Source: an uncultured bacterium
Lineage (GTDB): Bacteria; Omnitrophota; Omnitrophia; Omnitrophales; Aquincolibacteriaceae
Direction: 5' to 3'
NCBI GenBank assembly: GCA_964606385.1
Contig: CAZSFZ010000006.1
Coordinates: 45,943 to 109,942, forward strand
Length of the DNA stretch: 64,000 nt
Shown in pieces: positions 2,431 through 55,682 of this stretch; position 1 is the first letter of the stretch, and the number at the start of each line of letters is the position of its first letter. The translations under genes were made by a program, and so were the position numbers. The notes under the pieces are model-generated. The model ran no database searches, had not been told where the DNA came from, and saw nothing but the letters and a program-made list of their open reading frames with translations.

Positions 2431-4652
2431 AAATTACGCTGCGGCTGATCCTTTCGCTTCTGATCGCGACAACGATCGTGGTCGTGAGCTTTTCCTATCT
2501 TCAGGCGCAGCACGAGGAAAAACGTCTGAATGAAGAGCTCCGGCTCCGCGCCACCGTGCTTGCCAAGACCTTCAAGGAAACGGTGGAAGCCTATCTGGAA
2601 CGCACGGACCAGCCGGATCGAATCCAGAAATTCATAGAAAAATTCAAGGGGCATACCCGTCTCATCGGCTTGGTCGTGGATATGAAAGAAGGCCCGCGGC
2701 TCGCGCTGCCACCGGAGTTGGCCCAGGAAGAATTGTTCAAGAAAGATTCCCTGAAAGTCATGGAGGAGAACGCCCCCGTGGACGTGAACCGGAAGTGGGG
2801 GGAAAGAAAAGTGAATTACCACGCCGTCCCGCTTCTCAAGGACGACCAGATCGTCGGCGCTTTGGGGTTGATCCATGACCGGAGTTTTATCGTGGCCCAA
2901 ATGCATCAGTTCTGGAAAAACTCCGCGCTGACTTTTTCTATTTTAGCGGCGATCCTTTCGATCGTATCGCTTTTCGTGATCCGATGGAGTGTGACGGGCC
3001 CTATCGCCCGCATTGGCCTGATGATCCAGAAAACTCTGGGGGTCGAGTCCGGGGTCGCCCCCGCGAACGGTAAGGAGCCGGGCGGGGACATCGAGAAGCT
3101 TCTCTACGGCGTCAGCCATATGGCGGCAAGTCTTAAAGCGACCAAGCTTGATTTGATGGAGCAGTCCAGGCTTGTGAACGCTGAAGGGACCGTCTGGACT
3201 AAGGAGAGGCTCAAGGATTATCTTCGGACCAAACTTCACGGAAAACAGCTCTATGTGATCTCGAACCGGGAACCCTACATCCACCAGAAAAAAGGGAATG
3301 AGATCGAGTGCATTACTCCCGCGAGCGGCGTCGTCACGGCCCTGGACCCTGTTTTGCAGGCGACAGGCGGTCTCTGGATCGGCCACGGGGCCGGGAACGC
3401 GGACCGCGAGACCGTGGACAAGCAGAACAAGGTTCGTGTTCCGCCCTGGAAACCTTCTTTCACGCTTAAACGCATCTGGTTGAGCGAGGAAGAGGAGAAG
3501 GGGTATTACTATGGCTTTTCAAACGAAGGGCTTTGGCCGCTTTGCCACATCAGCCATGTGAGGCCGGTTTTCAGGATCGAAGATTGGTATTGTTACAAGG
3601 AAGTGAACCGGAAGTTCGCGCGGGCGCTTCTCGAGGAGCTCGACGACGATCCCCCCTTGATCCTGATCCAGGATTATCATTTCGCGCTGCTCCCTAAAAT
3701 GATCAAGGAAGAAAGGCCGGACGCCAAGATCGCGCTTTTCTGGCATATTCCGTGGCCGAATGCCGAAGCCTTCGGGATCTGCCCCTGGCAGGAAGAGATC
3801 CTGGAGGGCATGCTCGGAAGCGATATCATCGGGTTCCACACCCAATTCCACTGCAATAATTTCCTGGATACCGTGGACCGGGCGCTGGAATGCAAGATCA
3901 ACTGGGCGAATTTTGAAGTGACGCGCGGGGGCAAATCAAGCGCCGTCAAACCGTTCCCGATCAGCATTTCGGGAGCTCCCAACGTGGCGGTCCAGGAAAC
4001 CGGAAAAGATCCGGTCGAAAAACTCAGGGAAAGCCTTGGCCTCAAAGGGAAGAAGATCGGGATCGGGGTGGACCGTATCGATTATACCAAGGGTCTTTTG
4101 GAGCGTTTCCGCGCGATCGAGCGCGTTCTTGAAAAGTATCCGAATCTTCAGGGGGAGCTTGTTTTTATCGAGCTGGGGGCGCCTTCCAGGACCCTGATCG
4201 GGAGTTACCGTGATCATCTGGCCGAAGTTGAAAAACTTGCCGAAAAGATCAACCTGCGCTTCCAGAAAGGTTCCTATCGGCCCATCCTTTTTTTAGAGGA
4301 ACATCATGATCAGAAGAAAATATTCGATTTCTACCAGATGGCGGATTTTTGTTTTGTCAGTTCGCTTCATGACGGGATGAATCTTGTGGCCAAAGAGTTC
4401 GTTTCGGCGCGCGAAGATGAGGAAGGGGTGCTGATCCTTAGCCGCTTTACGGGAGCAAGTTATGAATTTTCGAGCGCCCTTCTGATCAATCCTTACGATA
4501 TCGAAGGGACCGCCGAGGCGATCCATCAGGCGCTTACGATGCTCCCGGAGGAAAAAATGGAGCGGATGCGGAAGATGCGCCAGATCGTCCGGGAATATAA
4601 CGTCTACCGCTGGGCCGCGGATATGATCACCGGGCTCGTCAAATCCTTCTGA
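2427..4652 (+). CDS. otsA: trehalose-6-phosphate synthase (GT20, OtsA) with N-terminal 2-TM extracytoplasmic sensor and HAMP-like linker
   Basis: The C-terminal ~490 aa carry classic OtsA motifs (GFSNEGLWPLCH, LIQDYHFALLP, VDRIDYTKG). The N-terminal ~250 aa have a TM helix, a ~140-aa loop, a second TM helix and an amphipathic HAMP-like segment (RWSVTGPIARIGLMIQ). ATGA overlap with mscS. Confidence 0.85.
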   Translation: MKITLRLILSLLIATTIVVVSFSYLQAQHEEKRLNEELRLRATVLAKTFKETVEAYLERTDQPDRIQKFIEKFKGHTRLIGLVVDMKEGPRLALPPELAQEELFKKDSLKVMEENAPVDVNRKWGERKVNYHAVPLLKDDQIVGALGLIHDRSFIVAQMHQFWKNSALTFSILAAILSIVSLFVIRWSVTGPIARIGLMIQKTLGVESGVAPANGKEPGGDIEKLLYGVSHMAASLKATKLDLMEQSRLVNAEGTVWTKERLKDYLRTKLHGKQLYVISNREPYIHQKKGNEIECITPASGVVTALDPVLQATGGLWIGHGAGNADRETVDKQNKVRVPPWKPSFTLKRIWLSEEEEKGYYYGFSNEGLWPLCHISHVRPVFRIEDWYCYKEVNRKFARALLEELDDDPPLILIQDYHFALLPKMIKEERPDAKIALFWHIPWPNAEAFGICPWQEEILEGMLGSDIIGFHTQFHCNNFLDTVDRALECKINWANFEVTRGGKSSAVKPFPISISGAPNVAVQETGKDPVEKLRESLGLKGKKIGIGVDRIDYTKGLLERFRAIERVLEKYPNLQGELVFIELGAPSRTLIGSYRDHLAEVEKLAEKINLRFQKGSYRPILFLEEHHDQKKIFDFYQMADFCFVSSLHDGMNLVAKEFVSAREDEEGVLILSRFTGASYEFSSALLINPYDIEGTAEAIHQALTMLPEEKMERMRKMRQIVREYNVYRWAADMITGLVKSF

Positions 4653-21726: not shown

Positions 21727-22073
21727 CATCCTATCTTCTTCAATCTAAATAAGTTATAGCTTTATGTATCCTTATGTCTCAGTCTGGAAATATTTTTAGT
21801 CTAGGCGGGCCCATGTTTGACAGCGTTACAAGGGCAAGTTACAATTCCTTTCAGAAGTCGATATCAACTTGCGAGGTGAAACCCGAAATATTCCCCTTTC
21901 TCAGGGGTAGCACTTTGAACTCTGCGGTTAGAGTTTCAAGTGACGTGGAAGCAAAAGTATTGAAGCGCCTGTTAGTTTTGAGTAATGACCCGGGTTGTAG
22001 GGGCGATTGCTTGGAACTAAAAGGCGTTTTTTTTATCCAGAAATAAAATCCGAAGGAAAGGAGGAAACTGAAT

Positions 22074-22370
22074 ATGAAGAGCATTGCGATCCTGATTGTT
22101 GCGATTCTGCTTTGCCCGGCTTTTGCGTTTGCTGCCGATGATATGACGCCCGTGGTTGTGGATGAGGCGGTTGTCGTGGCGGAAGATGCCGAGACCGGTG
22201 ATGTGATCGCCGAAGCCGTTGAAATGGATGAAACTCTCGCTCCGATGAGCGCGAAGGACATCAAGGCTGAAGCGAAGGAAGAGATCAAGGAAGTGAAGGA
22301 AGAAGCGAAAGAAGCGATTAAGGATATCAAGGCGGAAGAGAAGGAAGCCTTGGAAGAAGTAACGCTGTAA
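22074..22370 (+). CDS. small secreted acidic K/E-repeat protein
   Basis: RBS AAAGGAGGaaactgaatATG. Signal peptide MKSIAILIVAILLCPAFAFA. The C-terminal half is KEE/KEA repeats and is probably coiled-coil. Confidence 0.45.
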   Translation: MKSIAILIVAILLCPAFAFAADDMTPVVVDEAVVVAEDAETGDVIAEAVEMDETLAPMSAKDIKAEAKEEIKEVKEEAKEAIKDIKAEEKEALEEVTL

Positions 22371-22379
22371 GACTTGCGG

Positions 22380-22662
22380 TCTGTCCGAAAGGACGGGAGC
22401 ATGATCGCCTAATTCTTGAAATGAGGGAGCGGGAGAAATAGAAACGGTGAATCTCTCCGGAAGGGGGGACGGGCTAATCTGCGGTCCGAACCAAGAACTA
22501 GACTAATCCCGTCGGCGTTGCAGATTGTTATCATCGTTAAAAATGCAAGAGGCCGGTCTTTCGGGACCGGCCTCTTGGCTATTCAAAGAAAGTTCCCAAA
22601 TCCGCGTTTTTCTGCTTTAATACGCACTCCGTTTAACCAACCTGGTGGAAAGAGAGTAGTCC
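22380..22662 (+). promoter_or_regulatory. long structured 5' leader of terC-family gene (candidate Mn2+/yybP-ykoY-type riboswitch, unverified)
   Basis: ~280-nt untranslated leader with several stems: GGGAGA..TCTCTCC, GACGGG..CCCGTC, and a perfect 12-bp hairpin AAGAGGCCGGTC-TTTCGG-GACCGGCCTCTT at 22545-22576. TerC/Alx genes are the classic context for yybP-ykoY elements. The consensus could not be verified by eye. Confidence 0.3.
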
Positions 22663-29508: not shown

Positions 29509-29651
29509 AGGCAACTGTCCCACGTGCCACGGGCCACGGCGTTTTTCGTGGAGCGTGGACCGTGTCCCCCGGTGTTCGGCTCGCGCCTTTATTTTATCTT
29601 GCGATAGCCGTAACTATATCTAAAGATCCTTCAAATTGATAAGGGGAGCGT

Positions 29652-46299: not shown

Positions 46300-46425
46300 T
46301 CATTGAAAATATAGAGTGACAGGTGCTGGGAAGAGAGATCTGAGAGAATGCTCTCAGGGACTCCACGGTGCCGCCGCTGTCGGTAAGGACGAAAGCGAAT
46401 CAGCCACTGCTTCGATGTAAGAGGC
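46300..46425 (+). ncRNA. cobalamin (AdoCbl) riboswitch aptamer
   Basis: GGTGCTGGGAAG...GGTGCCGCCGCTGTCGGTAAGG...AATCAGCCACTGC contains the GGGAA, GCGGTAAGG-like and GCCACTG B12-box elements. Located upstream of a TonB-dependent receptor/btu operon. Confidence 0.6.
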
Positions 46426-46565
46426 GGGAAGGCTCGCGAGTAGGCTTGCCCCGTTGAATACGGGGTAAACACTTACCTAGTCAGAATATCAGCCTGTCGC
46501 TTTTGAAATTTGAGATCGTTCGTTTGAGATCTCGTAACGCCTCCGAGCAGAGGTCAAGACAGGTC

Positions 46566-49389: not shown

Positions 49390-50231
49390 AATTACAAGCC
49401 TGGACGTTAGCGGGACTTCTTTTTTTTATTTCTCTGCCAGACGTTCACGCTGTGGATCCCGAAGCAAAGGCCGGCGTTCCCCAGAAGATCGTCTCCATCA
49501 ATCTTTGTTCCGACGAGCTTCTTCTTCAGCTGGTGGCGCCGGAGCGAGTGGCGGCCCTGACGAAATTCAGCGCGGATCCGGAGTTCTCGACGATCGCGGG
49601 CAAGGCGCGGGACATTAAAAAGATCCAGGGTGGGATCGAGGACGTTCAGGCTTGCGGTCCGGACCTTCTTTTGGGCGGACGGTTCAGCCATAAAGAAACG
49701 ATGCGGTTTTTCAAGAATGCCGGGATCCCGGTCCTGACCTTCGGTATTCCAAAGAATTTTGAGGATATCTATGCGGATATCCTGAGGCTTGCGGCCGCGG
49801 TAGGGGAAGCCGCGTTGGGGGATCAGATCGTGATGAGCATGAAAGAAGAACTCGTGTCGCTGCGTCCGAAGACGCCCTCGAAGCAAAAAGCTGTTTTTTT
49901 ACAAAGCGGCGGCCTGGTGCCGGGTTCGGGGACGTTCGAGAACGCCATCATGGAAGCCGCGGGCCTTGAAAATCTTGCGGCGGCTTCCGGCATCAAAGAT
50001 TACGGGAATCTTTCGCTGGAGCAATTGATCCGGATGAAGCCGGATATGCTGATCTTCGCGAGTGACCAGAAAAAACGCCCGACGGTGCGCGGTGAGGTGC
50101 TGGACCATCCCGCGATCAAGAAGGCGCTGCCTCGTGTGAAAAGCGTGACGATCCCTTCGGCGATCCTGAACTGCGGATCCCCGGCATCGGTCGAGGCGGT
50201 GAGGATCCTTGTGAAGGAAACGGTAAAATAA
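49386..50231 (+). CDS. btuF: ABC transporter periplasmic substrate-binding protein, BtuF/FhuD family (Peripla_BP_2)
   Basis: Signal peptide, then KIVSINLCSDELLLQL...PDLLLG. ATGA overlap with the upstream gene. Confidence 0.75.
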   Translation: MKLQAWTLAGLLFFISLPDVHAVDPEAKAGVPQKIVSINLCSDELLLQLVAPERVAALTKFSADPEFSTIAGKARDIKKIQGGIEDVQACGPDLLLGGRFSHKETMRFFKNAGIPVLTFGIPKNFEDIYADILRLAAAVGEAALGDQIVMSMKEELVSLRPKTPSKQKAVFLQSGGLVPGSGTFENAIMEAAGLENLAAASGIKDYGNLSLEQLIRMKPDMLIFASDQKKRPTVRGEVLDHPAIKKALPRVKSVTIPSAILNCGSPASVEAVRILVKETVK

Positions 50232-50234
50232 ATT

Positions 50235-50367
50235 CGAAATGCGAATGCCGAAGCACGAAACAAATCTAAAATCCGAATGTTCAAAAGCACAAGGCCTCTT
50301 GTTTTTCGGTTCTGATTTTGAAAATTTGAATTTGTTTCGGATTTCGTGCTTAGGATTTCGGATTTGA
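50235..50367. repeat. AT-rich imperfect palindrome inside the btu operon
   Basis: AAGCACGAAACAAA (50251-50264) is mirrored by TTTGTTTCGGATTTCGTGCTT (50331-50351). Repeated AATCCGAA/TTCGGATT words. The region is far AT-richer than the surrounding operon. Confidence 0.35.
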
Positions 50368-50380
50368 AGACAAGGCGATT

Positions 50381-52167: not shown

Positions 52168-52677
52168 ATGAAAAAAAGAAATAAAGGACTCACCCTGGTG
52201 TTTACGGGGAACGGGAAAGGGAAGACGACCGCGGCGGTAGGTTGCGCCGTGCGCATGATCAAGCACGGAAAACGCGTCGGCATGGTCCAGTTCTTCAAGC
52301 TCCCGAGCAAGCACATCCTGCCGCATTCAAAATTCAGGGTCTGGAGCTTCGGCGGGGGATTCACCTGGGCCACGGCCCATACCGAGAACGCCCAGGCCGT
52401 CCAAAAGGCGTGGGCGAAGTGCCTTGAGCTTCTCCGCAATCCGAAATATGACATGGTCATTTTTGATGAGATCAATATCGCTTTTCATTACAAATTCCTC
52501 AAAATACCTGACGCGATCCAGGCGCTCAGAGGCCGTCGTTCCTCCCAGCATGTGGTTCTGACCGGCCGGAGCGCCCCTCGGGCCATCCAGCGTTTTGCCG
52601 ATCTCGTCACCGAAATGAAGTGCGTCAAACACCCCTACGATCGCGGTATTCCCGCCCAACAAGGGATTGAATTCTAA
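52168..52677 (+). CDS. btuR: cob(I)yrinic acid a,c-diamide / cob(I)alamin adenosyltransferase (CobO/BtuR)
   Basis: GLTLVFTGNGKGKTTAAVGCAVR P-loop typical of CobA/CobO. Confidence 0.85.
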   Translation: MKKRNKGLTLVFTGNGKGKTTAAVGCAVRMIKHGKRVGMVQFFKLPSKHILPHSKFRVWSFGGGFTWATAHTENAQAVQKAWAKCLELLRNPKYDMVIFDEINIAFHYKFLKIPDAIQALRGRRSSQHVVLTGRSAPRAIQRFADLVTEMKCVKHPYDRGIPAQQGIEF

Positions 52678-52686
52678 AAAAACGTT

Positions 52687-52754
52687 AAACGGGTAACGGG
52701 AAACGGGGAGCGCATGACAAAACTCGTTTGCCGTTCCCCGTTCAGCGTTTCCCG
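52687..52754. repeat. inverted-repeat element, left copy (blocks A+B)
   Basis: AAACGGGTAACGGGAAA (52687-52703) and CGTTCCCCGTTCAGCGTTTCCCG (52732-52754). The exact reverse complements occur in reverse order at 54818-54878. The unit itself folds as a hairpin (GGGAAACG/CGTTTCCC). Confidence 0.55.
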
Positions 52755-52875
52755 GCTCTGACCTGCTTTTTCCCGCTCTGAATTTGAGGCTTACTTGGTG
52801 TATAATAAAGCCGTGGAGTCATGGGCCCGAGGCATTGTGAGGGCGCATCCTTCAAACCACAAAGGAGGTAGGGCC

Positions 52876-53280
52876 ATGATCCAGAGCGCGAAGTTAGGCA
52901 AAGAGTTCGTCGTCGTTTCAGAGAACAAGGTTGGCGCGCTTTCCAAGGTCGCGGCGTTACTCGCGGACCGCGGGATCGATATCGTGGCGATCTCGGCCCA
53001 GGCGGCCGGAGGCGTCGCGCTGATGAATTTCGTCACAGATGACGCGTTGCATACGCGGGACCTTCTCGCCAAGAAGGGACTGAAAGCCCAGGAGAACACG
53101 GTGCTGTTGCTGGAGGTTGCGGATCGGCCGGGGGTGTTGTTGAGTATCACCCGAAAACTCGCGGCCCAGAAGATCGACCTCCTCAATGTCTACGCAAGCG
53201 CGCCGGCGTCTTACGGGCCGTGTACGCTCGTGATCTCGACGAATAACAATCAGAAAGCGCTTGTGACTCTGAAGCGGTAA
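52876..53280 (+). CDS. tandem ACT-domain protein
   Basis: RBS AAAGGAGGtagggccATG. Two ~65-aa ACT-like repeats (VVVSENKVGALSKVAALLADRGIDIVAIS... and LLLEVADRPGVLLSITRKLAAQKIDLL...). Confidence 0.6.
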   Translation: MIQSAKLGKEFVVVSENKVGALSKVAALLADRGIDIVAISAQAAGGVALMNFVTDDALHTRDLLAKKGLKAQENTVLLLEVADRPGVLLSITRKLAAQKIDLLNVYASAPASYGPCTLVISTNNNQKALVTLKR

Positions 53281-53344
53281 TCCAACAACCGAATCCTCGT
53301 TCGCGGGAAGTGTTCCGGGGATTCTTTTATTTTTAAAGGGCGTT

Positions 53345-53950
53345 ATGAAAAAGTATACGGACCTCAGTTTGCAGGAATACATCGAAAAACTCGCAAGCGA
53401 CGCGCCGGTGCCGGGTGGCGGCAGTGTTTCGGCCTACGCGGGAGCCCTCGGCATGGCCCTGACGCAGATGGTCGCGCGGATCGCGCTCAAGCGCAAACCC
53501 AAAGCCGATCTGACCCCCGAGCAAAAATTCCAGGACGAGGCGAACCGCAAACGGATGCAGGAGATCGTCGATTCCCTGGAAAAGACCCGCGCGGACGCGC
53601 TCCAGGTCGTGTCGCTGGACCCCAAGGTATACGACGAGGTGATGGCGTGTTACAAAGTGAACGCGGGCCCCGAGAAGCTTGAGGACGCGCTCCAGAACGC
53701 GTTCCGTTTGCAGGCGGACCTCGCGCTGATCCTTATCATGGCGAGAGAATGGAACAGTCACATGAAGACCCTCGTGAAGGGCTCGGTCGCCAACGATCTT
53801 ATCGTCAGCGACGGTCTTCTGTCCGCCGCGTTCGAAGGGGCTTACCATACCGCGCATATTAATGTGGTCTATATGAAGAACCAGGAACGGAAGGAACGCG
53901 CCGAAAAGGCTTTGGGCGAACTCCGGAGCCGTTTTGAGAAAGGGAATTAA
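53345..53950 (+). CDS. fchA: methenyltetrahydrofolate cyclohydrolase / formiminotransferase-cyclodeaminase-like (FchA family)
   Basis: N-terminal LQEYIEKLASDAPVPGGGSVSAYAGALGMAL is the FTCD_C signature. Confidence 0.75.
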   Translation: MKKYTDLSLQEYIEKLASDAPVPGGGSVSAYAGALGMALTQMVARIALKRKPKADLTPEQKFQDEANRKRMQEIVDSLEKTRADALQVVSLDPKVYDEVMACYKVNAGPEKLEDALQNAFRLQADLALILIMAREWNSHMKTLVKGSVANDLIVSDGLLSAAFEGAYHTAHINVVYMKNQERKERAEKALGELRSRFEKGN

Positions 53951-53951
53951 A

Positions 53952-54809
53952 GTGGAAACGAAAAGACTTGAAGGAAAAACGATCGCCACGACGCTGCAGG
54001 ACAAGATCATCGAGAAGGTCAAAGCCTTCACCGGTGCGGGACTGCCGAGGCCGTCCCTGGCCGCGATCCAGACGAGTGAGGATCCGTCGGCGGTCTGGTA
54101 TATCAACAGTCAGGAAAAGCTGGCGGCCAAGCTGGGCATTGATTTTAAACGCGTGCTTCCGGATCAGGTGAAGGGCGAAAAGGCCCTGATCGAGAAGGTC
54201 CGGGAACTTGGCGCCGACAAGACCGTTCACGGGCTTTTTATTTCCATGCCCCTGCCCGCGGGGATCGACGCGGACAAAGTGCTGCTTGCGATGGATCCCA
54301 AAAAAGACGTGGAAGGCGTTCATCCCACAAGCCTCGGGCTGATCGTCCTGCGCCGCGGTAAATTGATCCCGCCGACGGCGTTCGCGGCTTACACGCTTAT
54401 CAAAGCGAGCGGCATCATGCTCCGAGGAAAACGGGCGGCGATCATCGGCCAGAGCGCCATCGTCGGAAGGCCGCTACAGCTGCTTTTGGGAGAAGCGCGG
54501 GTCACGACTTTTGTGTGCAATACCGGGACCACCGACGATGATATGAAAAAGATCGTGGGCGGAGCTGATATCGTGGTGGCGTGTTCGGGGAAACCCGGTC
54601 TTGTCAAAGGCGCTTGGATCAAGCAGGGCGCGGTGGTGATCGATGTCGGTACGACGGAAGTGGACGGGAAGCTCCAGGGGGATGTGGAATATGACGAAGC
54701 CGTGAAAAAAGCCGGTTTTATCACGCCGGTCCCCGGGGGTGTGGGGCCCCTTACCGTGACGATGCTCATGGAAAACCTCATGGCGGCGTATGAGTGGCAA
54801 ATTAAATAG
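53952..54809 (+). CDS. folD: bifunctional methylene-THF dehydrogenase / methenyl-THF cyclohydrolase
   Basis: LEGKTIA..., PLPAGID, SAIVGRP and PVPGGVGPLTV motifs. A GTG start 2 nt after the fchA stop with an upstream GAGAAAGGGA is preferred. An ATG at 53934 is the alternative. Confidence 0.9.
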   Translation: METKRLEGKTIATTLQDKIIEKVKAFTGAGLPRPSLAAIQTSEDPSAVWYINSQEKLAAKLGIDFKRVLPDQVKGEKALIEKVRELGADKTVHGLFISMPLPAGIDADKVLLAMDPKKDVEGVHPTSLGLIVLRRGKLIPPTAFAAYTLIKASGIMLRGKRAAIIGQSAIVGRPLQLLLGEARVTTFVCNTGTTDDDMKKIVGGADIVVACSGKPGLVKGAWIKQGAVVIDVGTTEVDGKLQGDVEYDEAVKKAGFITPVPGGVGPLTVTMLMENLMAAYEWQIK

Positions 54810-54817
54810 CTGGAGAA

Positions 54818-54878
54818 CGGGAAACGCTGAACGGGGAACGAAAACGGGATTGCGTTCAACATTTCCCGTTACCCGTTT
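54818..54878. repeat. inverted-repeat element, right copy (reverse complement of the left copy)
   Basis: CGGGAAACGCTGAACGGGGAACG (54818-54840) and TTTCCCGTTACCCGTTT (54862-54878). Confidence 0.55.
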
Positions 54879-54890
54879 TCCGAGAAAATC

Positions 54891-55682
54891 ATGAAACACA
54901 CACCGCAGACCATCTATTCTAAAAAGCAGGCGGGGCAGAAGATCGTTTCGCTCAGTCTTTATGATTATCCCAGCGCCAAGATCGCGGACGGGGCCGGTGT
55001 CGACGTGATCATGGTGGGGGATTCGGTCGGCATGGTGCTTCTCGGCCACGAGAATACGCTGGGCATGACCATGGAACACATGATCTATCACACCCAGGCT
55101 GTTTCGAAAGCCGTGAAACGCGCGCTTGTGGTCGCGGATATGCCGGTCCACTCCTACCACGATCCCGAAACGGCGCTTGCCAACGCGAAGCGTTTCTTGC
55201 ATGACGCCGGCGCCGATGCCGTGAAGCTCGAAGGCGGTGCCAAGGTCCAGCCTCAGATCGAAAAACTTATGACCCAGGGGATCTCCGTGATGGGACACCT
55301 GGGCATGCTTCCTCAAGGTGTCGGGGATGGGAAATACCGCGTGTTCGGCAAAGATCCGGAGGAGGCCGAGGCGATCCTGAAGGACGCGCAGCTGCTTGAC
55401 CGGCTGGGGGTCTTCTCGATCGTATTGGAGTGTGTTCCCGTGAAGCTGGCCGCGGAAATTACCCGAAGCGTCAAATGTCCCACGATCGGGATCGGCGCGG
55501 GGCCTTCGACCGACGGTCAGGTGCTGGTTTTTCACGATCTTCTTGGGATACGTTCCGGCGTGAGCCCCCGTTTTGTGAGGCGTTACGCGAACCTTGAGGC
55601 GGTCATGAAAAAAGCGGCCGCTGATTATTACAGTGACGTTCAGCACAAAAGATTCCCGTCCCAGAAGGAGAGCTTTTCGTGA
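54891..55682 (+). CDS. panB: 3-methyl-2-oxobutanoate hydroxymethyltransferase (ketopantoate hydroxymethyltransferase)
   Basis: LSLYDYPSAKIADGAGVDVIMVGDSVGMVLLGHENTL is canonical PanB. Confidence 0.9.
   Translation: MKHTPQTIYSKKQAGQKIVSLSLYDYPSAKIADGAGVDVIMVGDSVGMVLLGHENTLGMTMEHMIYHTQAVSKAVKRALVVADMPVHSYHDPETALANAKRFLHDAGADAVKLEGGAKVQPQIEKLMTQGISVMGHLGMLPQGVGDGKYRVFGKDPEEAEAILKDAQLLDRLGVFSIVLECVPVKLAAEITRSVKCPTIGIGAGPSTDGQVLVFHDLLGIRSGVSPRFVRRYANLEAVMKKAAADYYSDVQHKRFPSQKESFS

What the first reader, a model, noticed from the sequence alone, without database searches (positions are those of the whole stretch)
52687..54878. One-carbon (ACT-fchA-folD) gene cassette bracketed by ~65-nt inverted repeat elements
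A 17-mer (AAACGGGTAACGGGAAA) and a 23-mer (CGTTCCCCGTTCAGCGTTTCCCG), separated by ~28 nt, lie right after btuR. Their exact reverse complements, in inverse order and separated by ~21 nt, lie right after folD. A 23-mer match plus a collinear 17-mer is far beyond chance in 64 kb. The repeats enclose exactly three genes of folate one-carbon interconversion plus an ACT regulatory protein. panB follows immediately and uses the 5,10-methylene-THF product. Each unit is itself a hairpin. The elements could therefore be REP/BIME-like terminators, the terminal inverted repeats of a mobilised cassette, or recombination sites allowing inversion of the module.
Basis: seen in the sequence. Interest (0 to 1): 0.6.

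Follow-up and report, generated by a model that had tools for sequence, protein, structure and literature searches.

The report
Dispersed heptad-repeat hairpins, not cassette ends
The two matching inverted sequences are real, but they are two copies of a common hairpin-forming repeat built from 7-base units that sits between genes in this bacterial group (Omnitrophota) and others, and they do not mark a mobile or invertible gene cassette.

Summary
Observation confirmed. The 17-mer and 23-mer occur exactly twice, as reverse complements, at the stated coordinates, where chance predicts about zero. Each unit is a ~70-nt imperfect hairpin. Its arms are tandem 7-nt units: AACGGGN on one arm, NCCCGTT on the other.

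The cassette reading fails. The same hairpin lies beside unrelated genes in other Omnitrophota genomes. In two other loci a pair of copies brackets an unrelated gene. The closest relative (~90% nt identity, same gene order) lacks the left copy. It also carries a hairpin of a different heptad at the right site. The order fchA-folD-panB is conserved in all eleven relatives that cover it. The folD-panB spacer is a hairpin in all ten genomes with DNA, built from at least six different heptads. The ACT gene and the upstream neighbour vary independently of the repeats. No recombinase lies within about 5 kb, and no relative shows the module inverted.

The right copy is flipped relative to its orthologues. 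Best reading: a REP-like, heptamer-repeat palindromic element of the kind described in Xanthomonas and Nostoc. It probably acts as an mRNA stem-loop between cistrons. This is a new member of a known kind, of modest interest.

The parts
52679..52760 (+). Left heptad-repeat hairpin (core 52687-52754). The family's canonical polarity is on the + strand. It starts 2-10 nt after the btuR stop codon and lies upstream of the fchA-operon -10 box.
   Evidence: Exact blocks. Fold -34 to -37 kcal/mol. Period 7. Covariance model R1 scores 76.9 bits on + and 53.4 on -. These 87 nt are replaced by 23 unrelated nt in the closest relative L151.
54811..54885 (-). Right heptad-repeat hairpin (core 54818-54878). 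Canonical polarity is on the - strand, so it is flipped relative to transcription and to the orthologous copies in L135 and L140. It fills the folD-panB spacer: the stem starts 1 nt after the TAG and ends 8 nt before the panB ATG.
   Evidence: R1 scores 83 bits on - and 47 on +. Against L140 it matches 62/72 when flipped and 48/69 in the same orientation.
52168..52677 (+). btuR/cobA (corrinoid adenosyltransferase), last gene of the B12-uptake operon.
   Evidence: Pfam PF02572, E 2.6e-54. TIGR00708 above its cutoff. The operon is headed by a cobalamin riboswitch at 46304-46511.
52795..52806 (+). Conserved -10-like box TTGGTGTATAAT, the presumed promoter of the (ACT)-fchA-folD-panB operon.
   Evidence: Unique in the window. 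The same or a near-identical box lies upstream of ACT or fchA in L074/L132, L151, L152, L153 and L154. Promoter function is inferred, not tested.
52876..53280 (+). ACT-domain-pair protein (134 aa). Its presence varies among relatives.
   Evidence: Pfam ACT and ACT_8. Present in L151, L153 and L158. Absent in L152, L154, L132, L159 and the P0030 locus.
53345..53950 (+). fchA-like cyclodeaminase/cyclohydrolase (FTCD_C).
   Evidence: Pfam PF04961, E 1e-31. Homologues are named Omnitrophota cyclodeaminase/cyclohydrolase.
53934..54809 (+). folD. The start is TTG at 53934 or GTG at 53952.
   Evidence: Pfam THF_DHG_CYH and THF_DHG_CYH_C. Gene lengths in relatives.
54891..55682 (+). panB, directly downstream of the right hairpin with no room for a promoter of its own.
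   Evidence: Pfam PF02548, E 2e-101. Sequence.
50224..50369 (.). Another heptad-periodic hairpin of a different heptad (NNCGAAA / TTTCGNN), in the btuF-btuC (FecCD) spacer of the same operon.
   Evidence: Sequence. Period 7 with 4.4 copies. Fold -40.4 kcal/mol, best lag 7. Picked up by the heptad-hairpin scan.
29510..29568 (.). Another heptad-periodic hairpin (CCACGNG / CGTGGNN) in an intergenic spacer.
   Evidence: It is also the best hit to model R1 outside the two copies themselves, though weak (15.3 bits).

Best explanation
The two units are copies of one dispersed palindromic repeat about 65-80 nt long. Its arms are 3-4 tandem heptads, AACGGGN on the 5' arm and NCCCGTT on the 3' arm, around a less conserved loop. 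The family has a polarity, because the 3' arm carries one irregular heptad (CGTTCCCCGTTCRRCGTTYCCCG). The left copy has the usual polarity and the right copy is flipped, which is why they read as exact reverse complements. Shown: the family sits between unrelated genes in several Omnitrophota genomes. It is gained, lost or replaced between close relatives. It belongs to a wider class of heptad-periodic hairpins found in this clade and, with the GGGRAAC unit, in Gemmatimonadota and other phyla. Inferred: the copies arise or spread at the DNA level. One route is heptamer slippage plus template switching within the hairpin. The other is REPIN-like copy-and-paste by a factor acting in trans. Also inferred: in the mRNA they are stable stem-loops. 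The left one closes the riboswitch-controlled B12-uptake transcript, as a barrier or leaky stop. The right one fills the folD-panB spacer and holds the folD stop codon and the panB start codon at the base of one stem. There it most likely tunes mRNA stability, read-through or translational coupling of panB. The pair does not define a mobile or invertible cassette.
For: Structure: exact blocks, period 7, hairpin folds.

Family: a generic heptad-hairpin pattern matched more than 119 stretches of GTDB genomes. By my own uniform-composition estimate about 2 are expected by chance. Several genomes have several matches. The Omnitrophota copies share the arm consensus and also a loop consensus (GAACGCAAGCCGCTTTTCG) at non-orthologous sites. 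Their neighbours are unrelated genes: VWA-TPR|YqeY, csoR<>tsaB, folK|panC, scramblase|histidine kinase, RF|Band7|SecA, FecR-like|acyl-CoA dehydrogenase, glgA-promoter|fchA.

Bracketing recurs elsewhere. In L054 two direct copies flank a Band7 gene. In L148 two inverted copies 2.2 kb apart flank an acyl-CoA dehydrogenase gene.

Turnover: L151 (89-93% nt identity, same gene order) has 23 unrelated nt where the window has the 87-nt left element, and it has a GGAT-type heptad hairpin at the right site. The folD-panB spacer is 60-89 nt and folds as a hairpin in all 10 genomes with DNA. Lag 7 is the clear best period in 8 of them (0.43-0.60); it is weak in L153 (0.32, tied with lag 6) and L159 (0.38). 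The heptads differ: AACGGGN, GTACGGC, GGATN/GGATG, GACTCGN, CGTTGNG.

Flip: the right copy matches L135 and L140 better when reversed. Model strand scores agree.

Precedent: intergenic G-rich heptamer repeats, often as convergent inverted pairs at conserved intergenic positions with variable sequence, are described in Xanthomonas and Nostoc (PMC4692102).
Against: Only these two copies were found in about 73 kb of the source genome. The genome-wide copy number of this organism is therefore not shown. No transposase or RAYT was identified, and no target-site duplication was seen, so the mode of spread is unknown. Three to four of about twelve independent Omnitrophota sites are next to folate, pantothenate or B12 genes. 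A specific regulatory role cannot be excluded on that basis. No expression data exist, so the RNA-level function is inference. RNA folding energies show no consistent strand preference. Covariation is absent because the arm sequence itself is conserved. RNA-level and DNA-level roles therefore cannot be told apart.
Confidence: 0.78

Rival explanations
1. The repeats are terminal inverted repeats of a mobilised ACT-fchA-folD cassette that transposes or is captured as a unit.
For: There is perfect 17+23-nt inverted identity around three functionally related genes. The left repeat is an indel relative to the closest relative.
Against: fchA-folD-panB-(RR-GGDEF) is syntenic in all eleven relatives that cover it. 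The right repeat therefore lies inside a conserved block, not at a boundary. ACT is present or absent independently of the repeats. The upstream neighbour switches between btuR and glgA without them. No transposase or integrase lies within about 5 kb. No target-site duplication is visible. In L131 the sharp drop from 100% to about 80% identity falls at the ACT|fchA junction, not at a repeat. Pairs of the same family bracket unrelated genes elsewhere.
Confidence: 0.03
2. The repeats are recombination sites that allow the 2.1-kb module to invert, as a phase-variable switch.
For: The copies are in inverted orientation. The right unit has itself changed orientation relative to its orthologues.
Against: All the relatives examined have the module in the same orientation relative to panB. 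There is no invertase or tyrosine recombinase nearby. Uninterrupted identity is only 17 and 23 nt. From my own knowledge, that is too short for efficient RecA recombination. The presumed promoter lies inside the segment, so inversion would cut panB off rather than switch the module.
Confidence: 0.03
3. The element is a specific cis-regulatory site, either a protein operator or an RNA element, that coordinates folate, pantothenate and one-carbon genes, possibly through the ACT protein.
For: Copies lie at folD|panB (window, L135, L140), in the fchA 5' leader (L074/L132) and at folK|panC (L013). The arm sequence is conserved while the loop varies. The family has a polarity.
Against: Most copies adjoin unrelated genes. 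The relatives picked by FchA homology alone (L151-L154, L158, L159) have no copy at this locus. L132, L135 and L140 were found by searching for the element itself, so they are a biased sample. The folD|panB hairpin uses different heptads in different genomes, so no common recognition sequence exists. L074/L132 have the element but no ACT gene beside fchA. There is no Rfam match, the pan motif included.
Confidence: 0.08
4. The units are simply efficient intrinsic (Rho-independent) terminators of btuR and folD.
For: They are GC-rich hairpins starting 1-10 nt after stop codons. The right unit is followed by UUUU. The left unit ends a riboswitch-controlled operon.
Against: The left unit has no U-tract. 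The consensus scan did not call either one. panB starts 8 nt after the right stem with no room for a promoter, so efficient termination would silence it. The same element lies between the promoter box and fchA in L074/L132 and in a divergent promoter region in L012.
Confidence: 0.1

Closest known systems
Intergenic G-rich heptameric repeats of Xanthomonas, (GGGAATC)n, and Nostoc, (GGGGAYT)n, also known as STRR (Rehm et al. 2015, PMC4692102)
   Same: Both are tandem 7-nt units with a G-run, strongly biased to non-coding DNA. They frequently occur as two convergent arrays on opposite strands that can form a stem-loop. They lie between the same genes in related genomes but vary in length and sequence. 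Their neighbours come from all functional classes. No function has been established.
   Different: The unit differs (AACGGGN) and so do the phyla (Omnitrophota, plus GGGRAAC in Gemmatimonadota and others). There are only about 3 units per arm, too few G-runs for a G-quadruplex. The Omnitrophota copies also share a loop consensus and a polarity, so they behave like copies of one element rather than independent repeat expansions.
REP/BIME elements and REPINs (Bertels & Rainey 2011, PMC3116915; PMC3337134)
   Same: Both are short extragenic imperfect palindromes. A REPIN is two conserved inverted arms around a less conserved spacer, as here. Both are dispersed between unrelated genes, occur in either orientation, and are often inside operons just after stop codons (abstracts).
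   Different: There is no GTAG-type 5' motif. No RAYT gene was found in the sequence available. The arms are internally 7-nt periodic. High copy number within one genome is not shown.
Rickettsia palindromic elements (RPE; from my own knowledge, not checked in the library)
   Same: Both are hairpin-forming repeats that can sit in frame inside protein-coding genes. In L152 a heptad hairpin adds 15 aa inside BtuR.
   Different: RPEs are longer (about 100-150 nt), not heptad-periodic, and restricted to Rickettsia. The in-frame case here has a different heptad from the window's element.
Intercistronic mRNA stem-loops that stabilise upstream cistrons or couple translation, such as the E. coli malE-malF REP (from my own knowledge)
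   Same: Both are stable hairpins that start right after a stop codon and lie within a polycistronic transcript.
   Different: No expression or decay data exist for this locus. The resemblance is positional only.

Membership tests
Heptameric intergenic repeat / inverted heptamer pair (Rehm et al. 2015 type) | At least 2 tandem 7-nt units containing a G-run | tested here: met
   Tandem Repeats Finder gives period 7 with 3.0 copies (AAACGGG) at 52687-52707 and 3.7 copies (GAACGGG) at 54815-54840. Lag 7 gives the highest self-identity.
Heptameric intergenic repeat / inverted heptamer pair (Rehm et al. 2015 type) | Non-coding location close to ORF ends | tested here: met
   Both units lie in spacers, 1-10 nt after stop codons.
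Heptameric intergenic repeat / inverted heptamer pair (Rehm et al. 2015 type) | Two convergent arrays on opposite strands able to form a stem-loop | tested here: met
   Inverted pairs I4 and I9. Folds of -29 to -37 kcal/mol.
Heptameric intergenic repeat / inverted heptamer pair (Rehm et al. 2015 type) | Same intergenic position in relatives, with variable length and sequence | tested here: met
   The folD|panB spacer holds a hairpin in all 10 genomes, with different heptads.
Heptameric intergenic repeat / inverted heptamer pair (Rehm et al. 2015 type) | At least four G-tracts per array (G-quadruplex potential) | tested here: not met
   There are at most three runs of GGG or longer per strand in either unit.
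REP / REPIN | Imperfect palindrome made of two conserved inverted arms with a variable spacer, in extragenic DNA | tested here: met
REP / REPIN | Tens to hundreds of copies within one genome | tested here: inconclusive
   Only 2 copies were found in about 73 kb of the source genome. Single related MAGs or metagenomes yielded two or more copies on different contigs even with strict patterns. The whole source genome could not be scanned.
REP / REPIN | Cognate RAYT (IS200/IS605-like Y1 transposase) gene, usually flanked by the repeats, and a conserved GTAG-like 5' motif | not testable with these tools
   No GTAG motif is present in the units. No transposase is seen among the neighbouring genes. 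A single-copy RAYT elsewhere in the genome could not be searched for.
MITE / composite transposon (mobilised cassette) | Terminal inverted repeats at the exact boundaries of a unit that is present or absent as a whole, with target-site duplication | tested here: not met
   Synteny across the right repeat is conserved in all relatives. ACT and the upstream context vary independently. No duplication flanks the indel.
Invertible DNA segment (site-specific inversion switch) | Adjacent invertase or recombinase gene, and both orientations observed | tested here: not met
   No recombinase lies within about 5 kb. Only one orientation is seen across the relatives. Heterogeneity within a single population could not be tested.
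Intrinsic terminator | GC-rich stem with a short loop, directly followed by a U-tract | tested here: inconclusive
   Neither unit was called by the scan. The left unit has no U-tract. The right unit has UUUU, partly inside the stem.
Known structured RNA families (Rfam 15, including riboswitches and the pan motif) | Match to a covariance model at or near its gathering score | tested here: not met
   There were no hits at E<=1 over 51.5-56 kb. At E<=10 only chance miRNA-hairpin hits appeared, far below gathering scores. Ten related loci gave none.
Integron attC site | Sites in direct orientation after each cassette, with R''/R' core sites (RYYYAAC / GTTRRRY) | tested here: not met
   The units are inverted relative to each other. 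The arms read GGGTAAC and GTTCCCC, which do not fit the core consensus (the consensus is from my own knowledge).

The most novel reading that the evidence does not exclude
Heptad-periodic hairpins (six paired bases and often one mismatch per 7 nt, about 60-150 nt in all) may be an undescribed, cross-phylum class of self-propagating elements with a dedicated mechanism. They would replace one another at fixed operon spacers, flip in place, enter 5' leaders, and insert in frame into genes. Each genome would carry its own set of heptads. The hairpin kept between folD and panB in every relative would then be a functional, sequence-independent device, for example one that couples panB translation to termination at folD.
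Probability: 0.2. Interest if true: 0.65.

Novelty: new member of a known kind. Interest (0 to 1): 0.33.

Why it matters
For this finding, the result removes an attractive but wrong idea: a mobile or invertible one-carbon cassette. It also warns that exact inverted matches around a gene group can be two copies of a common intergenic repeat.

More broadly, heptamer-built hairpins were described only in Xanthomonas and cyanobacteria, and their function is still unknown. Here they turn out to be abundant in Omnitrophota and Gemmatimonadota. In the Omnitrophota clade they hold a fixed position between folD and panB while their sequence turns over completely. That makes the clade a good comparative system for two questions: whether such hairpins are selected RNA structures or mutational by-products, and how they spread.

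Tried and rejected
1. Known RNA families. Rfam found nothing for either unit or for ten related loci.

2. A third copy at 52203-52227. It is the BtuR P-loop coding sequence (TGNGKGKT), so the similarity is a by-product of coding.

3. More copies in the source genome. Model R1 with filters off found none in the window or in 9.3 kb of extra sequence. Two look-ups meant to extend the window failed because the ORF starts did not match the records. A third gave only a 2.9-kb contig.

4. Literature search for the heptad strings. No paper contains them.

5. Polarity relative to transcription. About 10 copies are canonical and 3 are flipped, which is not significant, so I make no claim.

6. RNA strand preference from folding energies. 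None is consistent.

7. Phage origin. The viral contigs gave no match.

8. G-quadruplex. There are too few G-runs.

9. Target-site duplication at the left indel. None is clean. There is only a one-sided partial repeat, TTTCCCG(G)CTCTGA.

10. Covariation. None can be measured because the arm sequence itself is conserved.

11. Enrichment near folate and pantothenate genes. It is suggestive in the biased sample and absent in the sample chosen by FchA homology.
Full report

The 17-mer AAACGGGTAACGGGAAA is at 52687-52703 (+) and 54862-54878 (-). The 23-mer CGTTCCCCGTTCAGCGTTTCCCG is at 52732-52754 (+) and 54818-54840 (-). Both are exact, nothing else in 64 kb comes within 2-3 mismatches, and chance predicts 0.03 and 0.00 matches. 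The blocks are 28 nt apart on the left and 21 nt apart on the right, and the intervening sequences differ. This is the longest inverted pair in the window.

Each unit folds into a hairpin of -29 to -37 kcal/mol, z about -3 against shuffles.
- BtuR 52168-52677
- ACT-pair protein 52876-53280
- FchA-like FTCD_C protein 53345-53950
- FolD 53934 or 53952-54809
- PanB 54891-55682

A cobalamin riboswitch at 46304-46511 heads the upstream btuB-tonB-btuF-btuC-btuD-btuR operon. The left unit therefore sits at the end of a riboswitch-controlled transcript.

2. ANATOMY

Both arms are tandem 7-nt units. The 5' arm reads AACGTTA-AACGGGT-AACGGGA-AACGGGG. The 3' arm is its imperfect complement, CGTTCCC-CGTTCAG-CGTTTCC-CG. 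Tandem Repeats Finder reports period 7. Lag 7 gives by far the highest self-identity.

Such a unit has the same general form on either strand. "Orientation" is therefore defined only by the loop and by the irregular middle heptad of the 3' arm. A third apparent copy at 52203 is just the BtuR P-loop codons.

3. IT IS A FAMILY

I scanned one genome per GTDB species with AACGGGNAACGGG-N15-45-CCCGTTNNNCGTT. By my own uniform-composition estimate about 2 are expected by chance. Most hits are Gemmatimonadales. Others are Omnitrophota, Longimicrobium, Rhodanobacter/Frateuria, Hydrogenophilales, Thermoanaerobaculia and more. Several genomes have several hits.

The window's proteins place it in Candidatus Omnitrophota. 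The Omnitrophota copies share the arm consensus CGGG-N-AACGGG-N-AACGGG-N-AACG ... CGTTCCCCGTTCRRCGTTYCCCG. They also share a loop consensus at non-orthologous sites.

A covariance model built from twelve copies (R1) scores each copy 15-35 bits higher on one strand. The family therefore has a polarity. The neighbours of the Omnitrophota copies are unrelated genes:
- VWA-TPR | YqeY
- csoR <> tsaB (a divergent promoter region)
- folK | panC
- scramblase | histidine kinase
- release factor | Band7 | SecA
- FecR-like | acyl-CoA dehydrogenase
- glgA-promoter | fchA

In L054 two direct copies flank a Band7 gene. In L148 two inverted copies 2.2 kb apart flank an acyl-CoA dehydrogenase gene. Bracketing of a gene or small gene group by two copies therefore recurs with unrelated content.

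4. THE LOCUS IN RELATIVES

Relatives came from a metagenome scan for the 3' arm and, without that bias, from FchA homologues. The order fchA-folD-panB-(response regulator/GGDEF) is kept in all eleven relatives that cover it. L131 and L074 cover too little to tell. What lies upstream varies:
- btuR-ACT: window, L151, L153
- btuR without ACT: L152
- glgA-ACT: L158
- glgA without ACT: L154, L132/L074, L159, P0030

A -10-like box, TTGGTGTATAAT or a near variant, is kept upstream of ACT or fchA.

The closest relative is L151, at 89-93% nt identity in fchA, folD and panB. It has 23 unrelated nt where the window has the 87-nt left element. At the right site it has a hairpin built from GGAT-type heptads. 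L153 also lacks the left element. In L074/L132 a copy of the family lies between the promoter box and the fchA start codon, that is, in the 5' leader.

L131 is a 1-kb, low-coverage contig. It is 100% identical to the window through btuR, the left element and about the first 130 nt of ACT, then nearly identical (3, 2 and 3 mismatches in three 50-nt bins) to the end of ACT. It drops to about 80% exactly where fchA begins. If this is not an assembly chimera, it is a recombination junction that does not coincide with either repeat.

None of the six relatives chosen by FchA homology carries an AACGGGN copy at this locus.

5. THE RIGHT SITE

The folD-panB spacer is 60-89 nt and folds as a hairpin in all ten genomes with DNA. 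Lag 7 is the clear best period in eight of them (0.43-0.60). It is weak in L153 (0.32, tied with lag 6) and in L159 (0.38). The heptads differ:
- AACGGGN: window, L135, L140
- GTACGGC: L132
- GGATN or GGATG: L151, L152
- GACTCGN: L154
- CGTTGNG: L158

The stem typically starts 0-3 nt after the folD stop codon and ends 7-14 nt before the panB start codon.

The window's right copy matches the L135 and L140 copies at the same site much better when reversed: 60-62 of 72 positions against 48-49 of 69. Either the element flipped in place or it was acquired independently in the opposite orientation. I cannot tell which.

6. THE WIDER CLASS

The window has at least two more heptad-periodic hairpins built from other heptads. 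One is at 29510-29568 (CCACGNG). The other is at 50224-50369 (NNCGAAA), in the btuF-btuC spacer.

Period 7 is the commonest tandem-repeat period in this clade: 7 of 25 arrays in the window, 11 of 17 in L152 and 6 of 8 in L132. In L152 one such hairpin lies in frame inside btuR and adds 15 residues.

7. COMPARISON WITH WHAT IS KNOWN

Rehm et al. 2015 (PMC4692102) describe G-rich heptamer repeats, GGGAATC in Xanthomonas and GGGGAYT in Nostoc. These have about 185 sites per Xanthomonas genome and are strongly intergenic. In 70-75 cases they form convergent inverted pairs able to make stem-loops. They lie between the same genes in related species but vary in length and sequence, their neighbours span all functional classes, and their function is unknown. 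That is the closest described kind.

REPINs, two conserved inverted REP arms around a less conserved spacer (PMC3116915 and PMC3337134), are the closest mobile-element analogy. That analogy covers the identical arms with differing loops, but I found no RAYT. No paper in the library contains the heptad strings, and Rfam has no matching family.

8. HOW IT MOST LIKELY WORKS

Shown: the units are members of a dispersed, gain-and-loss-prone hairpin family. They are not boundaries of a mobile or invertible unit.

Inferred, at the DNA level: the copies arise or spread either by heptamer slippage plus template switching within the hairpin, or by REPIN-like copy-and-paste.

Inferred, at the RNA level: the stem-loop after btuR acts as a 3' barrier or leaky stop for the B12 operon. 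The stem-loop between folD and panB is structurally conserved in all relatives. It juxtaposes the folD stop codon and the panB start codon. It most likely tunes stability, read-through or translational coupling.

The element cannot be an efficient terminator in general. It also sits in a 5' leader, in a divergent promoter region, and 8 nt before a cistron that has no promoter of its own. Folding energies show no strand preference, and there is no covariation to separate RNA-level from DNA-level roles.

9. LIMITS

I could examine only about 73 kb of the source genome, so its copy number is not known. L132, L135 and L140 were found by searching for the element itself and are a biased sample. L131 has low coverage. 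No expression data were available.

10. VERDICT

The cassette and inversion readings are not. This is a new member of a known kind. Interest is modest for the finding as posed. It is somewhat higher for the clade-wide pattern of fixed-position hairpins whose heptads keep being replaced.

Noticed in passing
window 50224-50369: A 146-nt hairpin (-40 kcal/mol) built from NNCGAAA / TTTCGNN heptads fills the btuF-btuC (FecCD) spacer. L152 has a hairpin of a different heptad (CCAAGNN) at the same spacer.
   Followed up: partly
window 29510-29568: A heptad-periodic hairpin, (CCACGNG)x3 - GTTTTT - (CGTGGNN)x3, lies in an intergenic spacer. It is the best hit to the element model outside the two copies themselves, though weak (15 bits).
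   Followed up: partly
L152 4411-4485 (and possibly 4246-4276): A heptad hairpin, GGGACAC.../...CGTGGAT, lies in frame inside the btuR coding sequence. It adds 15 residues in a variable loop relative to the window's BtuR. This resembles the in-frame palindromic elements of Rickettsia.
   Followed up: partly
L132 3748-3776 and 3986-4060: Further GTACGGC/CGCCGTA heptad arrays lie just upstream of, and apparently inside, the 5' part of a glycosyltransferase-like ORF in the same contig that carries the GTACGGC hairpin between folD and panB.
   Followed up: no
L131 (aligned to window 52507-53514): The contig is 100% identical to the window through btuR, the left element and about the first 130 nt of ACT, nearly identical to the end of ACT, then drops to about 80% identity exactly at the start of fchA. 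This is either a recombination junction at ACT|fchA or a chimeric low-coverage contig.
   Followed up: partly
window 52795-52806; L074, L132, L151-L154: The -10-like box TTGGTGTATAAT (or a near variant) is conserved upstream of ACT or fchA in relatives with different upstream genes. The AACGGGN element lies upstream of the box in the window but downstream of it in L074/L132.
   Followed up: partly
window 52876-53280 and relatives: The ACT-pair gene is present or absent independently of whether btuR or glgA lies upstream (window, L151, L153 and L158 have it; L152, L154, L132, L159 and the P0030 locus do not).
   Followed up: partly
window 46304-46511 and 1273-1324: A cobalamin riboswitch (54 bits) lies upstream of the TonB-dependent receptor that heads the B12-uptake operon. 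An nhaA-I RNA (52 bits) lies upstream of a mechanosensitive-channel gene.
   Followed up: no
L121-L150 (e.g. L133, L139, L147, L123, L126): Many metagenome hits to the 3'-arm pattern look like one-stranded tandem arrays, (CGTTCCC CGTTCAG)n, with no complementary arm in the 65 nt upstream. They are often adjacent to arrays of other heptads (TTTCGAA, GACGTCC). The heptad therefore also exists as a plain tandem repeat.
   Followed up: no
L013 5665-5741: In Omnitrophica RIFOXYB12 the element overlaps the 3' end of the folK (HPPK) ORF, beyond the Pfam domain, and abuts panC. This is a second folate-gene | element | pantothenate-gene junction.
   Followed up: partly
window 22254-22348: A 33-nt-period tandem repeat (2.9 copies, rich in GAAG/AAGG) lies on the strand opposite the 21851-22402 (-) ORF.
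   Followed up: no
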